UHGV virus genome: UHGV-0072281
Reading direction: 5' to 3' (one strand)
Origin: a virus
DNA length: 64,000 nucleotides
Shown in pieces: positions 9,534 to 19,911 of this stretch; the stretch's first letter is position 1; the number at the start of each line of letters is the position of its first letter. A program made the position numbers and the translations under genes. The notes below the pieces were generated by a model, which was not told the origin of the DNA, did not search any database, and saw only the letters and a list, made by a program, of their open reading frames with translations.

Positions 9534-11819
9534 ATGAAAGATACCCGAATCTCTAATTTAGAGAAACTCGTAGAAGCCGGTACTAGTCTGGCCCAAAACG
9601 TCATCGGCAACAACACCGCCAGCGAAATGTGGAAGACGATTGTTGCAGGCGAGTCCGTACGTAGCAACGCAAAAGTATTTGGCGCTCTGCGTGACGAAGC
9701 ATCACAGCACTATGCCAACGCTTTTGGCGGCAAGAAAATGTCTCATGCTGCGACCGTCGCTTCCGCAATGATTCTGGGCGTAGCTAACCACGGTAAAGAC
9801 CTGCAAGAACGTGTTGCCCAGGAATACGCTAAGCCGGAATTCCACACCAAGTATAACCTGGATATTGGTATCCCTGGTGCGCAAGGTGGTGATTGGGGTC
9901 GTGAGCGTATGGTTGTTGCTCAGGAATACTACAGCAACAAAGACTACGACAAAAACTTGGGCCTGACCTGGACCCTGAACGTACGTGCTCTGGAAACTCA
10001 GTCCAAGTTTGCTGAAACACTGTTCCCGACCATTACCGTTGACACCAACGATGTTGGTATTACCGTACGTACTAAAGTGACTACCGTTTCTCGCGGTATC
10101 ATGAACGCGCTGCTGAGCAAAGACGTCGTTGAAGATCATCGTCGTCCGCTGCACAACGCACTGACTGACCACACCGTTCTCCAGGACGAAGCGATCAACA
10201 TCGTTCCTTACGTAATGGAAACCGGTGAAAACCAGGAATACTTCGTAAGCGAAGATCTGGTTCCGAACGAAAAAGTTCGCCTGGGTCGTGTACCTCCGTA
10301 TCCGACTAACTACCTGAGCTTTGCAAACGACACGCTGAACCTGTTCCAGCTGTCTGCGCATCCGGGTATCGTTCAGGAAGGTTACGATGAAACTGATGAA
10401 ATCGCACCGGGTTGTGCTCTGGGCAGCCTGCTGATTTCTGTACGTAAACCGGCCGAAGAAGCGAAAGCGGGTAAATTCATCAAACTGCACGTTCGTGACA
10501 TGCAGTTCGCAACCTTCCAGCGTCCTGCTGAAGGTGACGGCCGTGAACTGGTTCTGCAATTCCGTCGTACCGCGTTCTCTCTGAATGCGAAAACCACTGA
10601 CTGGAAAGGCGACGCTATTCCGGCACTGCAAGCACTGGGCCAGAACTCCTACACCCTGCGCTACGTTATCACCATCACCATGTCCCTGTTCACCAGCGGC
10701 CAGTTCGGTGGTAAAGTAGACATTTCCGGCCACAAACTGGAAATCGAAGGTCTGTACGATGCAACTGGTAACAAAGTTGATACCAAGTCTGGTACCGGCA
10801 AAGTTATCCTGGATGGCCTGAAACTCGAACTGATGGGCTGGCGCTTCGATGGTACTCGTACCAACGAAAACCGTCGTACCCAGGGTCTGCTGCTTGACCC
10901 AATTTGGGAACAGGAAAACTACAAACTGCAATACGGTTCTCCGATTCTGACCAAGTCTCCGGTTGGTGTTGAATACGACGACACTGAACGTCTGGATGAC
11001 CTGATCTCTGCGGTGAACATCCGTAACGAACAGCTGGCTATTACTCAGACGCTGTCTTACACTGAAGCAGTACGTAACGCAGCCGCTGCGATGATCACTC
11101 CGTGGGACAAACCGGCTATCCGTGGTCTGGGCCGTCACTGGGTTGCTCCGTGGTTCAAAGAGTCTGACTACAAAGTCGATGAAGTTGTTCAGTCTCTGGA
11201 TACCAAAGAAGCGCTGATCAACGCTCGTCAGGGTCTGTTGCAGCGTATCGGTAGCCAGGTAACTCAGGCTATCCAGGATTCTCGTTTCATTCCTGCACTG
11301 CGCCTGCTGACCGCTGATCCGGACATTCTTCCGAAAGTTATTATCGCAACTGACGAACCGACTGCATCCATGCTGCTGCTGGTTCAGGGCGACCAACGTC
11401 TGCTGGGCGACCGTTATGAATACGAAGTCGTTACCACCAACGATGACCGCTGGCGTATCTACAACGCAGCTGACGATTCCTGGACTCGTCGTCTGCAATG
11501 GTTCCTGAAAGTTCCGACTGCGGACGATGGTTCCTACTGCGTACTGAACTGGGGTAACCACTTCTGGTCTCCGATCATGGTTACCAACATCAACATTCAG
11601 CGTAACGGTTCTACTTCTAAAGAACTGGCTGTACAGCCGCGTAACGCGCATATCTGCCACTGCCCGATCACTGGTCTGATTTGGGTTAAAGGCATCACCA
11701 AACTGGTTGAAGAAAAACTGGCTTACAACGTTTCTGTAGAACAGAACGGCCAGAAACAAACCGAAGGTGGTGTAGCAGGTAACCTTGCTGTCGAAGGCAA
11801 AGCTACCGCTGGTAAATAA
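9534..11819 (+). CDS. major virion structural protein, candidate major capsid protein (761 aa); tail sheath not excluded
   Basis: Codon usage sharply different from neighbours (CTG, CGT, GGT, ACC, AAA, GAA dominate); strong terminator directly downstream; size is in the range I recall for jumbo-phage capsid proteins (from memory, unverified). Confidence 0.45.
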   Translation: MKDTRISNLEKLVEAGTSLAQNVIGNNTASEMWKTIVAGESVRSNAKVFGALRDEASQHYANAFGGKKMSHAATVASAMILGVANHGKDLQERVAQEYAKPEFHTKYNLDIGIPGAQGGDWGRERMVVAQEYYSNKDYDKNLGLTWTLNVRALETQSKFAETLFPTITVDTNDVGITVRTKVTTVSRGIMNALLSKDVVEDHRRPLHNALTDHTVLQDEAINIVPYVMETGENQEYFVSEDLVPNEKVRLGRVPPYPTNYLSFANDTLNLFQLSAHPGIVQEGYDETDEIAPGCALGSLLISVRKPAEEAKAGKFIKLHVRDMQFATFQRPAEGDGRELVLQFRRTAFSLNAKTTDWKGDAIPALQALGQNSYTLRYVITITMSLFTSGQFGGKVDISGHKLEIEGLYDATGNKVDTKSGTGKVILDGLKLELMGWRFDGTRTNENRRTQGLLLDPIWEQENYKLQYGSPILTKSPVGVEYDDTERLDDLISAVNIRNEQLAITQTLSYTEAVRNAAAAMITPWDKPAIRGLGRHWVAPWFKESDYKVDEVVQSLDTKEALINARQGLLQRIGSQVTQAIQDSRFIPALRLLTADPDILPKVIIATDEPTASMLLLVQGDQRLLGDRYEYEVVTTNDDRWRIYNAADDSWTRRLQWFLKVPTADDGSYCVLNWGNHFWSPIMVTNINIQRNGSTSKELAVQPRNAHICHCPITGLIWVKGITKLVEEKLAYNVSVEQNGQKQTEGGVAGNLAVEGKATAGK

Positions 11820-16447: not shown

Positions 16448-16491
16448 GTTTGGATTGGGGGTGGAAACATCCCCATTTTTAAGGAGTGCGT

Positions 16492-16740
16492 ATGGCCGCT
16501 TATGTTGATTACAGTAAAGCCAAGATAGAGCTAAACGTAATTGATACCGTAGAGCGTTTAAAGCAACAACTTTCTTTGGAGTTATATCAACTTCGCGTCC
16601 GTATTCACGAGCGTGAACAACTTATTGAGAAACATCCATTATTTATCGACGAGAAGCAGGTAAAACTTATCACTGCGGAGTTAGAAGTTATGGCCGCAGA
16701 GAAACTGTTACTCGAAGAACGCATCGCTGCTATTGGTTAA
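16492..16740 (+). CDS. small coiled-coil protein (~82 aa)
   Basis: AGGAGT RBS before ATG 16492; heptad-rich sequence. Confidence 0.5.
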   Translation: MAAYVDYSKAKIELNVIDTVERLKQQLSLELYQLRVRIHEREQLIEKHPLFIDEKQVKLITAELEVMAAEKLLLEERIAAIG

Positions 16741-16750
16741 TCATCACACA

Positions 16751-16782
16751 AGGAGAGCCGAAGCTCTCCTCCTTTATTTTTA
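16751..16782 (+). terminator. rho-independent terminator
   Basis: aggagagc-cgaa-gctctcct hairpin followed by a T-rich tract. Confidence 0.7.
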
Positions 16783-16828
16783 TTCCCCAATTTATTATAG
16801 CCGCCCACTATAGTGAGGGAATGAGGAA

Positions 16829-17134
16829 ATGATTAAATATGTTGTTATTAATGTAAACTACGAACGTAGTCCACGTTTTCGCTTCGAATTACCTGAAACC
16901 AATGCAACCATGGAGTTTAATCGCTACTTTTTAGAGCATTCAAACACCAAAGTCAATCGCGGTAGATACTAGCTTATCTACTATAATGCACGTAATGAGT
17001 TACTGAAAGCCGTCAAGAAATCAGGTCAGCAAGAATTGTTAGCGAAACTGATGGCGTTTGATAACGATCCTTTAGCAATAGGAATTATGTTAGACCTTGT
17101 TATCAATAAAGACGAAATAGCGTGGTCCGAATAA
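16829..17134 (+). CDS. small ORF interrupted by one in-frame TAG (47 codons, TAG, 53 codons); readthrough candidate or pseudogene
   Basis: ATG 16829; TAG at 16970-16972 in context TAC TAG CTT; same frame stays open to TAA 17132-17134; terminator follows. Confidence 0.35.
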
Positions 17135-17138
17135 AAAA

Positions 17139-17188
17139 GCTACTCCGACCCCAGAAGGGTCGGAGTAGGCTCGAATTATTTTTTTTTT
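17139..17188 (+). terminator. bidirectional terminator between convergent genes
   Basis: tactccgaccc/gggtcggagta 11-bp stem flanked by an A run upstream and T10 downstream. Confidence 0.7.
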
Positions 17189-17193
17189 GCTAT

Positions 17194-19911
17194 TTAGAGA
17201 GTTTCATCGCTGTTGTCATCTGCACCGGTATCCGTCTCGTCCGTGCCTTCAGTTGAAACGTCTTCTTCCGTTGCCGTATCGGTTTCCGTCGTTTCATCGT
17301 CAGTCATGTCCAAGTCTTCATCACCGCCCAGATCGTCACCACCTAAGTCCTCATCGCCTCCTAAGCCGCCGTCATCTTCAGTGCCGCCGCCAAAGTCGCT
17401 GCTACCGCCGAAGTTATTGGCGTCTTCAGGATTCAGATCAGCCGCTTTTGCTAACGTTTCAACTTTCCCTGTTACACGTTTTGCCAACTGAATCAGTGTC
17501 TTAGATGCAGACGCAATTTCGTCAGAGATCATCTTAACGTTTTCACCGCGTTTCTCTTCATCGTAAATCAGGTCGAACATATCGTTCTCAATACCCTGAC
17601 TACGTAACCAGTGGCGCGCGTAGAAGGTCTTAACCATCGTCTTGAGGTCATCAGGTGACATTTCAATACCTTCGTTCTGAAGCATATTAGCAATGTCATC
17701 CGTGACCACCAGATCTGCAAGTTTCTCGATAAATTCATAGCGTTTATCGAAGAGATCAGCTTGAGATGCTGTTGCAGAAGTATCAGGTGGTGGCAAGGTG
17801 ACCTTCATACCGTTGATAAACTTCGCCATATACTCTGACGTTTGTTTTGTCATCTCTTCGCTAGATACATTCGGATTCTGCTCACGGATATACTCAACGA
17901 TAATACGGATGAGTTCTGCTTGCAGTTTCGGTGAAGCTTGCAGACTGTTTGTAACGTAGCGCGTAAGCGGGGTTGAGAGGATTTCCTGTTTCTTCACAAT
18001 CTGTTGAGTAACCAACAGCGATTTAGAATAAATCTGAGAAGCAAACTCCAGGTTCTCCGGGGTAAGTACAAGGTCAGGATCAACACACGCGATGTGACAT
18101 GTACGGCGTAACAGGTTCTCGTCAATTTGTTGATCAGGAACTTTATACTCCGGCGTGGTATCAGACACAGACACTTTGTGGCTGGCGTAGTAATCGTTAC
18201 CCGTTACGTTAAAGGCAATCCCCGCGTTAGCTCCCATTGCCCAAGCATCGTTAATATCCCCCCACATCGGTAAACGACGGTTGTAGGAGTTAAGGATATC
18301 TGATTTGGCTTGGTCGACAGTTTTTTGACCGTTTGCATCGTCCGGTGACAGCTCAATGTCGTACTGCATGTGACGTGCCGAGTTTAGTACAGATGAGTTC
18401 ATTGTCGCAAACAGCAGTGCCATCCTGACGGTGGAGATGATAAAAGAGCGTTCAGTGATAGAAACCCCGATACCATCTTCGTTAAAATCCGTTGCAAAAT
18501 AGCATAGGTTATTAACCGGAATGTAAACCACTTGAGTATGACGTTTTGCGAGATGACGCGCTAACAGAATACGGCCGAATGTTTCGGTAATATTCATGCT
18601 GATTTCTGCGCCACCTAGTGCCTGACTTAATGCGCGAGCAAATTCGTTTTCAGCGATTTCACCGCAACGTGTACTTAAACGGTTGGCGATTTCCGGGGTA
18701 ATGCGAGAAGTGTTCCCTAAGCCCAGATTAGAACGGTTAATGATGCTGTCCGTCATCCCGTCGTTATTCAGGTAGTTCATAAAGTTCGCATCGCCGTACA
18801 GCGAGGAGCGAGCATTGATGAAGTTACCCATGTCATCTACGATGGTCAGATAACCAATAGGGTTACGAACGTCATCGCCAATTACCAGTGGCAGCGTTGA
18901 CTCTGCGGGCAGTAAACGTTCGATGTATTCGATTTTGTTATTCTCATCCATTGAGATAATAGGAATATCACCGTACGTTTGTGTTTTCGGTGTTGACTTA
19001 TACGCCTCGTTTAAATCACCCAAGTTAATGAACCCTTTTTCAGCAGCGTCACGCTGACGGTCATCGAAAGATTGGTTAGGGTCGAACGGACTGCCACCGT
19101 TTGGTGTAGACGGCTTTTCATATGCGGCTTGCTCTAATTGCCCGTACAAACCCGTACGTGCGTTCTCATGCGCGATACGACGATACAAATCCGGCAGCAT
19201 GGTAATGCGCGGGTTATCGGTAATCGTGATTTCCATCTGGAATTTATCCGAGAACATCGAATCGTGCTTACCGAAATCGATTTTCAACGTCTGAGGACCA
19301 GTAACGGCTCCGTGTAAACGGTTGAGAATTGATTCCACACCAACTCGCTGCCCTTCTTTCGGCGCATTAATAGGCCCGAGAATACCAAGCTGTTGTTCGA
19401 AGAACGCCGTTTGGGAACGACGAATAGATTCAGTAGCGACCTTTGTATTCAGACCGAATAATTGGTCGAAGCCGGTATCCGAGATTATCATCACTGGACT
19501 TGCGCCTTTGGTTTTTAACGCATCGTAAATCCACTGATATAATTTCTTAGGTAGCTGACGAATGTTATCGTGATAATCACGGGTCGGTGTCAGTAGCGCG
19601 TTACGCAGATCAATGGGGATGTCCGCGAAGTTGTCGTAAATCAACGTCGTGTTGATTAAGTCTTTTGTTGATAACAGGCTCGAAGTTGCAATAGTAACGA
19701 TTGTTTCGAGTTCAGGTAACGCATCAAAGATACGTTCCGCATTTTTGATAGTACGAATACGTGAACTCGCAATTGCCGTGAGTTCTTGACGTGTTGGCGT
19801 AGAACCACCCTCGCTACGCGTACCGCGTTGTTGCTGAGGTGCTGGGCCCGTAGTTTTACGAAGAATTGCAGCTACGGCGGGGTCGCCCGTTAATTTACTA
19901 ATATCGTCCAT
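17194..19911 (-). CDS. large virion-type protein with acidic low-complexity C-terminal tail (905 aa); portal is one possibility
   Basis: Long minus-strand ORF; GGAGA RBS on minus strand; C-terminal ~70 aa are D/E/G/T-rich. Portal assignment is speculative. Confidence 0.6.
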   Translation of the reverse strand: MDDISKLTGDPAVAAILRKTTGPAPQQQRGTRSEGGSTPTRQELTAIASSRIRTIKNAERIFDALPELETIVTIATSSLLSTKDLINTTLIYDNFADIPIDLRNALLTPTRDYHDNIRQLPKKLYQWIYDALKTKGASPVMIISDTGFDQLFGLNTKVATESIRRSQTAFFEQQLGILGPINAPKEGQRVGVESILNRLHGAVTGPQTLKIDFGKHDSMFSDKFQMEITITDNPRITMLPDLYRRIAHENARTGLYGQLEQAAYEKPSTPNGGSPFDPNQSFDDRQRDAAEKGFINLGDLNEAYKSTPKTQTYGDIPIISMDENNKIEYIERLLPAESTLPLVIGDDVRNPIGYLTIVDDMGNFINARSSLYGDANFMNYLNNDGMTDSIINRSNLGLGNTSRITPEIANRLSTRCGEIAENEFARALSQALGGAEISMNITETFGRILLARHLAKRHTQVVYIPVNNLCYFATDFNEDGIGVSITERSFIISTVRMALLFATMNSSVLNSARHMQYDIELSPDDANGQKTVDQAKSDILNSYNRRLPMWGDINDAWAMGANAGIAFNVTGNDYYASHKVSVSDTTPEYKVPDQQIDENLLRRTCHIACVDPDLVLTPENLEFASQIYSKSLLVTQQIVKKQEILSTPLTRYVTNSLQASPKLQAELIRIIVEYIREQNPNVSSEEMTKQTSEYMAKFINGMKVTLPPPDTSATASQADLFDKRYEFIEKLADLVVTDDIANMLQNEGIEMSPDDLKTMVKTFYARHWLRSQGIENDMFDLIYDEEKRGENVKMISDEIASASKTLIQLAKRVTGKVETLAKAADLNPEDANNFGGSSDFGGGTEDDGGLGGDEDLGGDDLGGDEDLDMTDDETTETDTATEEDVSTEGTDETDTGADDNSDETL

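What the first reader, a model, noticed from the sequence alone, without database searches (positions are those of the whole stretch)
16829..17134. Small ORF with a single in-frame TAG and 53 further open codons before a terminator
TAG at 16970-16972 (context TAC TAG CTT) splits a continuous 101-codon frame that ends at TAA 17132, immediately followed by a strong bidirectional terminator. The tail is chance-open with probability only around 0.1. Could be programmed readthrough giving two isoforms, dependence on a suppressor tRNA elsewhere in the genome, or a recent nonsense mutation.
Basis: seen in the sequence. Interest (0 to 1): 0.5.

Follow-up and report, generated by a model that had tools for sequence, protein, structure and literature searches.

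The report
Recent amber mutation in small phage gene
A single G-to-A change has turned a conserved tryptophan codon into a stop in a small gene of unknown function next to the portal gene of a giant enterobacterial phage; this is an ordinary recent nonsense mutation, not programmed readthrough or recoding.

Summary
ATG 16829, an in-frame TAG at 16970-16972, 53 more open codons to TAA 17132-17134, then a strong bidirectional terminator hairpin.

The window is part of a SPN3US/phiEaH2-like ("Seoul-like") jumbo phage. The interrupted frame is the orthologue of an uninterrupted ~100-codon hypothetical gene (PHROG 10389; SPN3US ACQ60_gp186, phiEaH2 gp004). That gene sits at the same place, convergent with the portal gene, in every relative examined.

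- **Codon 48:** it is TGG (Trp) in 17 of 17 related loci at 82-97% nucleotide identity. It is Trp or Phe in all phage orthologues down to 34% identity.
- **Private change:** the G-to-A at 16971 is the only base in the first 297 nt of the gene (all but the last three codons) that no relative shares.
- **Tail:** it is under purifying selection in relatives (dN/dS about 0.14) and shows no decay here.
- **Rest of the window:** no other annotated gene among the 79 syntenic ORFs compared is interrupted. About seven other ORFs end in TAG.
- **tRNAs:** none in the window. A complete 222-kb relative at 97% identity has only tRNA-Ile.

Best reading: a very recent, probably real, amber loss-of-function allele. 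It likely yields a 47-residue fragment that cannot complete the fold. Readthrough, suppressor dependence and code reassignment are not supported. Interest is low.

The parts
16751..16770 (+). Terminator-like hairpin plus T-run that ends the upstream 84-aa gene (16486-16740). It isolates the small gene as its own short transcription unit.
   Evidence: 8-bp stem, 5 GC pairs, followed by CCTTTATTTT; -13.6 kcal/mol, z = -3.4.
16771..16828 (+). Conserved upstream leader, with GAGGG at 16815-16819 and AGGA at 16824-27 as Shine-Dalgarno candidates before the ATG. The promoter is not identified.
   Evidence: Nearly invariant in 4 relatives (alignment A1). No sigma-70-type match on the plus strand.
16829..16972 (+). 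Truncated ORF of 47 codons plus TAG. It is the N-terminal half (predicted strand-strand-helix) of the PHROG 10389 protein.
   Evidence: The exact 47-aa product is on record on 4-7 contigs, including NCBI DAY64696.1.
16970..16972 (+). Amber codon TAG created by a G-to-A transition at 16971 in an otherwise invariant TGG (Trp48).
   Evidence: TGG in 17/17 related loci. It is the only window-private base in the first 297 nt of the gene. See also alignment A1 and A3.
16973..17134 (+). Orphaned C-terminal half (53 codons plus TAA). It is intact and homologous to residues 49-101 of the full-length orthologues.
   Evidence: dN/dS is about 0.14 among relatives and 0.03-0.25 for the window against relatives.
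17138..17188 (.). Bidirectional intrinsic terminator shared with the convergent portal gene. Hairpin 17140-17168, A-run 17133-17138 (the U-tract for the minus strand), T-run 17179-17188.
   Evidence: The hairpin is conserved in relatives.
17194..19911 (-). Portal protein gene (context). It is convergent with the small gene and fixes the synteny with SPN3US gp81 and the phiEaH2 portal gene.
   Evidence: 72-75% aa identity; annotated as portal or virion structural protein; portal = gp81 in PMC5105663.

Best explanation
The 101-codon frame is one gene: the orthologue of a conserved ~100-aa non-structural hypothetical protein (PHROG 10389) of SPN3US/phiEaH2-like jumbo phages. In this metagenome-derived genome (JGI 3300045988, contig Ga0495776_071432) a single G-to-A transition at 16971 changed the conserved Trp48 codon TGG to the amber codon TAG.

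Inferred consequences:
- Translation stops after 47 residues. The predicted fold is strand-strand-helix-strand-helix-helix-strand, and Trp48 opens the third strand. The fragment therefore lacks two of four strands and two of three helices, and is most likely non-functional.
- The gene stands alone between two terminators and is followed only by a convergent gene, so premature termination has no polar effect on neighbours.
- The mutation is very recent, or the allele is a rare variant, because the orphaned tail carries no private change.

Shown here: the base change, its uniqueness, conservation of the tail, absence of any recoding signal, and absence of a suppressor tRNA in a complete close relative.
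Inferred, not shown: loss of function, dispensability of the gene, and that the base call is real.
For: - **Synteny and homology.** Uninterrupted 99-102-aa genes sit in the same position, convergent with the portal gene, in phiEaH2, SPN3US and Asesino, in Huxley, Caitlin, ChrisDB and pEa_SNUABM_29, and in 48 phage records by tblastn.
- **Codon 48.** It is TGG in 17/17 related loci representing 10 distinct alleles. 16971 is the only position in the first 297 nt where the window differs from all of them.
- **Closest allele.** P0020 is 99% identical to the Trp-restored product (its only other difference is L89H) and is seen on 31 contigs, including Shigella flexneri isolates. At DNA level it differs at 6 of 306 nt.
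- **Selection on the tail.** dN/dS is 0.14 in the tail and 0.10 in the head among relatives.
- **Rest of the window.** tblastn of 85 ORFs from the 97%-identical relative NZ_CP173450.1 gave 79 hits. Only this annotated gene has an internal stop. The three other flagged ORFs are 49-51 codons long and unannotated.
- **TAG usage.** TAG terminates 8 of 84 greedy-selected ORFs, this one included.
- **tRNAs.** None in the window. Only tRNA-Ile in the complete relative.
- **Structure.** The model has pLDDT 81.7, with Trp48 at the start of strand 3.
- **Independent records.** The 47-aa product is recorded by four sources (JGI, Logan, ENA, NCBI) on contigs of different lengths up to 226,156 bp. This argues against a one-off assembly error.
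Against: - No reads are available, so a consensus base error or a minority variant fixed by the assembler cannot be excluded.
- The 4-7 contigs carrying the allele have the same neighbouring proteins over +/-10 kb. They may all derive from one sample, or even one deposited contig.
- Loss of function is inferred from a predicted structure only.
- The strong conservation of the gene (hundreds of intact copies, dN/dS about 0.1) sits a little uneasily with a viable null allele. Some readthrough, or a defective or minority genome, remains possible.
- Only 64 kb of this genome, plus a 97% relative, were scanned for tRNAs, not this genome's remaining ~160 kb.
Confidence: 0.8

Rival explanations
1. 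Sequencing, assembly or consensus artefact, or a minority variant. The phage population in the sample actually carries TGG, and the deposited contig records a miscalled or minor-allele A.
For: It is a single-base difference and the only private base in the gene. All contigs carrying it look like one strain. The gene is otherwise strongly conserved.
Against: The exact 47-aa product is recorded from JGI, Logan, ENA and NCBI, on contigs of at least two different lengths (200,862 and 226,156 bp). This suggests more than one assembly. The rest of the 64-kb window shows no other interrupted annotated gene, so the assembly is not error-prone.
Confidence: 0.12
2. Functional translation through the TAG. 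This would come either from a suppressor tRNA (phage-borne elsewhere in the genome, or in the host) or from leaky termination, giving a short and a full-length isoform.
For: The tail is intact and in frame. The gene is conserved, so a complete null might be costly. About 160 kb of this particular genome was not available for a tRNA scan.
Against: - The stop is not conserved in any relative, so it is not a programmed feature of the family.
- There is no tRNA in the window, and only tRNA-Ile in the complete 97% relative.
- About seven other ORFs end in TAG.
- Only one interrupted gene was found among 79.
- SPN3US amber mutants fail on sup- hosts (PMC5105663).
- From general knowledge, not tested here: a pyrimidine 3' of UAG is a poor suppression context in enterobacteria, and natural isolates rarely carry amber suppressors.
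Confidence: 0.05
3. Genome-wide TAG reassignment (code-15-like recoding, as in some gut phages), with TAG read as an amino acid in some genes.
For: The source is a gut-associated uncultivated phage genome, a setting where TAG recoding is known (general knowledge).
Against: TAG ends about seven other well-delimited ORFs that are followed directly by the next gene. Only one in-frame TAG appears in 79 compared ORFs. Relatives use TGG at the site. There is no suppressor tRNA.
Confidence: 0.01
4. The 47-codon ORF is the true gene and the open tail is chance.
For: An open run of 53 codons has a chance probability of about 0.04-0.05, and similar patterns occur elsewhere in the window.
Against: The tail aligns over its whole length with the C-terminal half of intact orthologues. 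It includes the near-invariant motif PLAIGIM (invariant L, I, G and M). It shows a purifying-selection signature.
Confidence: 0.01

Closest known systems
Amber (nonsense) alleles of phage genes, for example the hydroxylamine-induced amber mutants of Salmonella phage SPN3US (Thomas et al. 2016, PMC5105663)
   Same: A one-step change of a sense codon to TAG in a SPN3US-type jumbo phage. That paper reports amber codons arising from both Gln and Trp codons. Translation truncates unless a suppressor host is used.
   Different: This one is natural (a metagenome-derived genome), not induced. It lies in a small gene that the three SPN3US papers checked do not discuss (no mention of gp80 in PMC5105663, PMC5694885 or PMC10052503; the name gp80 is inferred from portal = gp81). 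Its phenotype is unknown.
PHROG 10389; SPN3US ACQ60_gp186 (YP_009153374.1), phiEaH2 G173_gp004, Asesino gp96, Huxley gp93
   Same: Same family (E = 2.8e-30 over residues 1-95). Same length when read through. Same position, convergent with the portal gene, and same terminator arrangement.
   Different: All of those are uninterrupted. The window's copy has TAG at the conserved Trp48.
Programmed stop-codon readthrough (for example the Q-beta A1 protein)
   Same: An in-frame stop followed by an open, coding-looking extension.
   Different: In programmed cases the stop is conserved and the extension is an add-on domain. Here the stop is unique to one genome and splits a single small domain in the middle.
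TAG-recoded phages (genetic code 15) with suppressor tRNAs
   Same: An in-frame TAG in a phage from a gut-type sample.
   Different: There is no suppressor tRNA. TAG is used as a terminator. Only one in-frame TAG was found in about 80 genes.

Membership tests
Nonsense (amber) mutation of an otherwise intact gene | Homologous position in relatives is a sense codon one base change away | tested here: met
   TGG in 17/17 related loci. TGG to TAG is one G-to-A transition. Trp or Phe in 13 aligned orthologues.
Nonsense (amber) mutation of an otherwise intact gene | Sequence after the stop is homologous, in frame, to the remainder of the intact protein | tested here: met
   Residues 49-101 align without gaps to the orthologues. 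dN/dS is about 0.14 among relatives.
Nonsense (amber) mutation of an otherwise intact gene | The allele is real in the DNA, not a base-call error | not testable with these tools
   No reads are available. Indirect support: the 47-aa product is recorded by four sources on contigs of different lengths, but these may come from one sample.
Programmed translational readthrough | The stop codon at the readthrough site is conserved among relatives | tested here: not met
   No relative has a stop here.
Programmed translational readthrough | Two protein isoforms are produced | not testable with these tools
   Needs proteomics or a reporter assay.
Stop-codon reassignment (TAG recoding) or a phage-encoded amber suppressor | A tRNA with anticodon CUA is encoded by the phage | tested here: not met
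   0 tRNAs in the window. The complete 221,873-bp relative at 97% identity has only tRNA-Ile. The remaining ~160 kb of this exact genome was not available.
Stop-codon reassignment (TAG recoding) or a phage-encoded amber suppressor | Many in-frame TAGs in conserved genes, and TAG avoided as a terminator | tested here: not met
   One interrupted annotated gene among 79 compared. 8 of 84 ORFs end in TAG.
PHROG 10389 (unknown function) | Significant full-length profile match | tested here: met
   E = 2.8e-30, protein residues 1-95 against profile positions 1-94 of 101, using the Trp-restored translation. No Pfam family.
SPN3US/phiEaH2-like ('Seoul-like') chimallivirus-type jumbo phages | phiKZ-type major capsid protein, portal and syntenic head-gene block | tested here: met
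   PF25620 PhiKZ_MCP on the 761-aa gene at 9534-11819. Portal 72-75% identical to phiEaH2 and SPN3US. Same gene order. Chimallin itself was not looked for.

The most novel reading that the evidence does not exclude
The amber allele is real and adaptive. Knocking out this small conserved protein, or reducing it to trace readthrough levels, may help the phage in a particular host. It could, for example, escape a defence system that senses this protein, or shift the balance towards the persistent, non-lytic carriage reported for Seoul-like jumbo phages. This would make the allele a natural pointer to the gene's function.
Probability: 0.05. Interest if true: 0.35.

Novelty: already known. Interest (0 to 1): 0.08.

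Why it matters
It matters little biologically. It is a useful negative result, because it shows this window has no readthrough signal, no suppressor dependence and no alternative genetic code.

Practical value:
- The 47-aa ORF called by pipelines (for example NCBI DAY64696.1) should be annotated as a disrupted copy of a ~100-aa gene.
- If the allele is real, it hints that this widely conserved PHROG 10389 gene is dispensable for propagation of a Seoul-like jumbo phage, at least in some hosts. That could be tested in the SPN3US genetic system.

Tried and rejected
- **Megablast of the locus against the phage collection:** no match. Relatives were reached through proteins instead.
- **Exact search for the TAG-containing 35-mer in IMG/VR:** none found.
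- **Degenerate 21-mer scan of metagenome contigs:** this gave one TAG-bearing hit, L010. It shares no other similarity with the window. By my own rough estimate about two chance hits were expected, so it was discarded.
- **GTDB species-representative genomes:** no relative found.
- **Listing the other six contigs that carry the 47-aa product:** I could not list them separately. The look-up collapses places with the same neighbours, even with 10-kb flanks. Independence of the samples therefore remains open.
- **Reinitiation to make a C-terminal fragment:** considered and rejected. The only in-frame starts in the tail (TTG 17036, ATG at about 17051) have no convincing Shine-Dalgarno sequence. 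This comes from reading directly and was not tested further.
- **Lab-made amber mutant:** considered and rejected. The source is a metagenome-derived contig, and it is only 72% identical in the portal protein to SPN3US.

Full report
**1. The observation**

Reading the window directly confirms every coordinate.
- ATG is at 16829 and TAG at 16970-16972, in the context TAC TAG CTT.
- The same frame stays open for 53 more codons, to TAA at 17132-17134.
- A strong hairpin follows at 17140-17168 (extended stem 17138-17171). It folds at -24.2 kcal/mol, z = -5.7, and none of 200 shuffles folds as well.
- The hairpin has an A-run before it and a run of ten T after it. It is a canonical terminator for the convergent minus-strand gene and a slightly less canonical one for the plus strand.
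- A second hairpin plus T-run at 16751-16770 closes the upstream 84-aa gene. The small ORF is therefore a stand-alone unit between two terminators.

The chance of 53 open codons is about 0.04-0.05. That alone means little, because 64 stops in the six frames of the window have at least 45 open codons on both sides.

**2. What the window is**

The minus-strand 905-aa gene at 17194-19911 is 72-75% identical to the portal or virion structural protein of Erwinia phage phiEaH2, Asesino and Salmonella phage SPN3US. The 761-aa gene at 9534-11819 carries the PhiKZ_MCP domain.

The window is 100% identical to JGI 3300045988 contig Ga0495776_071432, which is 200,862 bp long.

Relatives at about 97% nucleotide identity are:
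- ~222-kb circular 'plasmids' of E. coli 98232 (NZ_CP173450.1) and Enterobacter ludwigii (NZ_CP134650.1);
- ~225-kb contigs in IMG/VR and in gut metagenomes.

Intact copies of this gene are also named in many Salmonella, Shigella and E. coli isolate assemblies. This matches the 'Seoul-like persistent jumbo phages' described in bioRxiv 10.1101/2024.12.31.630880.

**3. What the interrupted frame is**

In phiEaH2, SPN3US and Asesino an uninterrupted 100-102-codon 'hypothetical protein' lies in exactly this position, convergent with the portal gene. The same holds for Huxley, Caitlin, ChrisDB and pEa_SNUABM_29. tblastn finds the gene in 48 phage records, all Seoulvirus, Erskinevirus, Machinavirus or similar.

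The Trp-restored translation matches PHROG 10389, of unknown function, at E = 2.8e-30 over residues 1-95. It has no Pfam match.

In the multiple alignment the TAG falls on a Trp. That Trp is invariant down to 39% identity and is replaced by Phe in the two most distant orthologues. The tail contains the most conserved motif of the family (D/E-x-L-A-I-G-I-M).

**4. The mutation**

- **Unique change.** Across 17 related loci (10 distinct alleles, 82-97% identical in their flanks), codon 48 is always TGG. No relative has any stop. Position 16971 is the only base in the first 297 nt at which the window differs from all relatives (alignment).
- **Closest allele.** P0020 is seen on 31 contigs, including Shigella flexneri isolates. 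It differs at 6 of 306 nt, has Trp48 and has one other amino-acid difference.
- **Selection.** Among relatives both halves of the gene are under purifying selection (dN/dS 0.10 in the head, 0.14 in the tail). The window's tail against relatives gives 0.03-0.25, so there is no sign of relaxed constraint.

The change is therefore a single, very recent G-to-A transition in a gene that is otherwise maintained.

**5. Tests of the alternatives**

- **Recoding.** A greedy gene set of 84 ORFs uses TAA 57, TGA 19 and TAG 8 times. TAG is thus an ordinary terminator for about seven other ORFs.
- **Other disruptions.** tblastn of 85 ORFs from the syntenic 64 kb of NZ_CP173450.1 against the window gave 79 hits. 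Only this annotated gene has an internal stop. The other three flagged ORFs are 49-51 codons long and unannotated. The assembly is therefore clean and the genome is not decaying.
- **Suppressor tRNA.** ARAGORN finds none in the window. It finds a single tRNA-Ile in the whole 221,873-bp relative, in agreement with the RefSeq annotation.
- **Literature.** SPN3US amber mutants grow only on suppressor hosts (PMC5105663). That clade therefore carries no effective amber suppressor of its own.
- **Programmed readthrough.** This is excluded as a family trait, because the stop is not conserved.

**6. Consequence for the protein (inferred)**

An AlphaFold2 model was built from 12 homologues, with P0020 as the target. 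It has mean pLDDT 81.7 and pTM 0.75. The elements are:
- strands 3-8 and 15-20;
- helix 25-37;
- strand 48-50;
- helices 51-65 and 68-79;
- strand 84-88;
- a disordered tail from residue 91.

Trp48 opens the third strand. A 47-residue product would keep only two strands and one helix of a single compact domain, so it is unlikely to fold or function.

The gene is monocistronic and followed only by a terminator and a convergent gene, so there is no polarity on neighbours.

**7. Is the base real?**

The exact 47-aa product is on record from JGI, Logan, ENA and NCBI (DAY64696.1, 'MAG TPA Caudoviricetes sp.'). It is found on 4-7 contigs of different lengths up to 226,156 bp. This argues against a one-off assembly slip.

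All of these contigs share the same neighbours over +/-10 kb, so they may stem from one sample. Without reads, I leave about 12% for an error or a minority variant.

**8. Verdict**

This is an ordinary amber loss-of-function allele of a conserved gene of unknown function in a Seoul-like jumbo phage.

It is not novel in kind and its interest is low. The residual value is in annotation (the 47-aa ORF is a disrupted gene) and as a hint that the PHROG 10389 gene may be dispensable.

Noticed in passing
whole window; L016-L021 (NZ_CP173450.1); H75 (NZ_CP134650.1): The phage in the window has ~97%-identical relatives deposited as circular ~222-kb 'plasmids' of E. coli 98232 and Enterobacter ludwigii. 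Intact copies of this small gene occur on ~225-kb contigs in many Salmonella, Shigella and E. coli isolate assemblies. This matches the 'Seoul-like persistent jumbo phages' already described in bioRxiv 10.1101/2024.12.31.630880.
   Followed up: partly
window 16829-17134 compared with flanks; L022-L027: There is a local mosaic. The small gene is 98% identical (6 of 306 nt differ) to the allele of a lineage whose flanking genes are only 82-86% identical to the window. The window's 97%-identical relatives carry more divergent alleles of this gene. This suggests a short recombination patch.
   Followed up: partly
window 9702-11759 (- strand), inside the major capsid gene 9534-11819 (+): A 685-codon antisense ORF lies in codon register with the major capsid gene. 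The capsid gene almost completely avoids TTA, CTA and TCA codons (1, 0 and 1 of 762, against 21, 5 and 14 of 906 in the portal gene). That avoidance removes antisense stops. The open antisense frame is also long in relatives, at 556-765 codons. It is most likely a codon-bias by-product, not a gene.
   Followed up: yes
L020 1420-1496 (NZ_CP173450.1 150822-150896): The only tRNA in the complete relative is a tRNA-Ile that ARAGORN reads with anticodon AAT, which is unusual for bacteria and phages. The corresponding region is outside the window.
   Followed up: no
window 16486-16740 and the equivalent slot in SPN3US (L002 7144-7410): The slot upstream of the small gene holds unrelated small genes in different lineages. 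The window has an 84-aa gene (my reading of its sequence: coiled-coil-like). SPN3US has an 88-aa gene. phiEaH2 and Asesino have none. BFVD hits of 86-88 aa with the same predicted fold as the PHROG 10389 protein raise the possibility that the SPN3US-type neighbour is a structural paralogue.
   Followed up: no
L010 (Ga0315533_1000021) 1011-1031: An exact 21-mer containing the TAG variant occurs in an unrelated 190-kb metagenome contig. It shares no other similarity with the window, so it is a chance match.
   Followed up: yes
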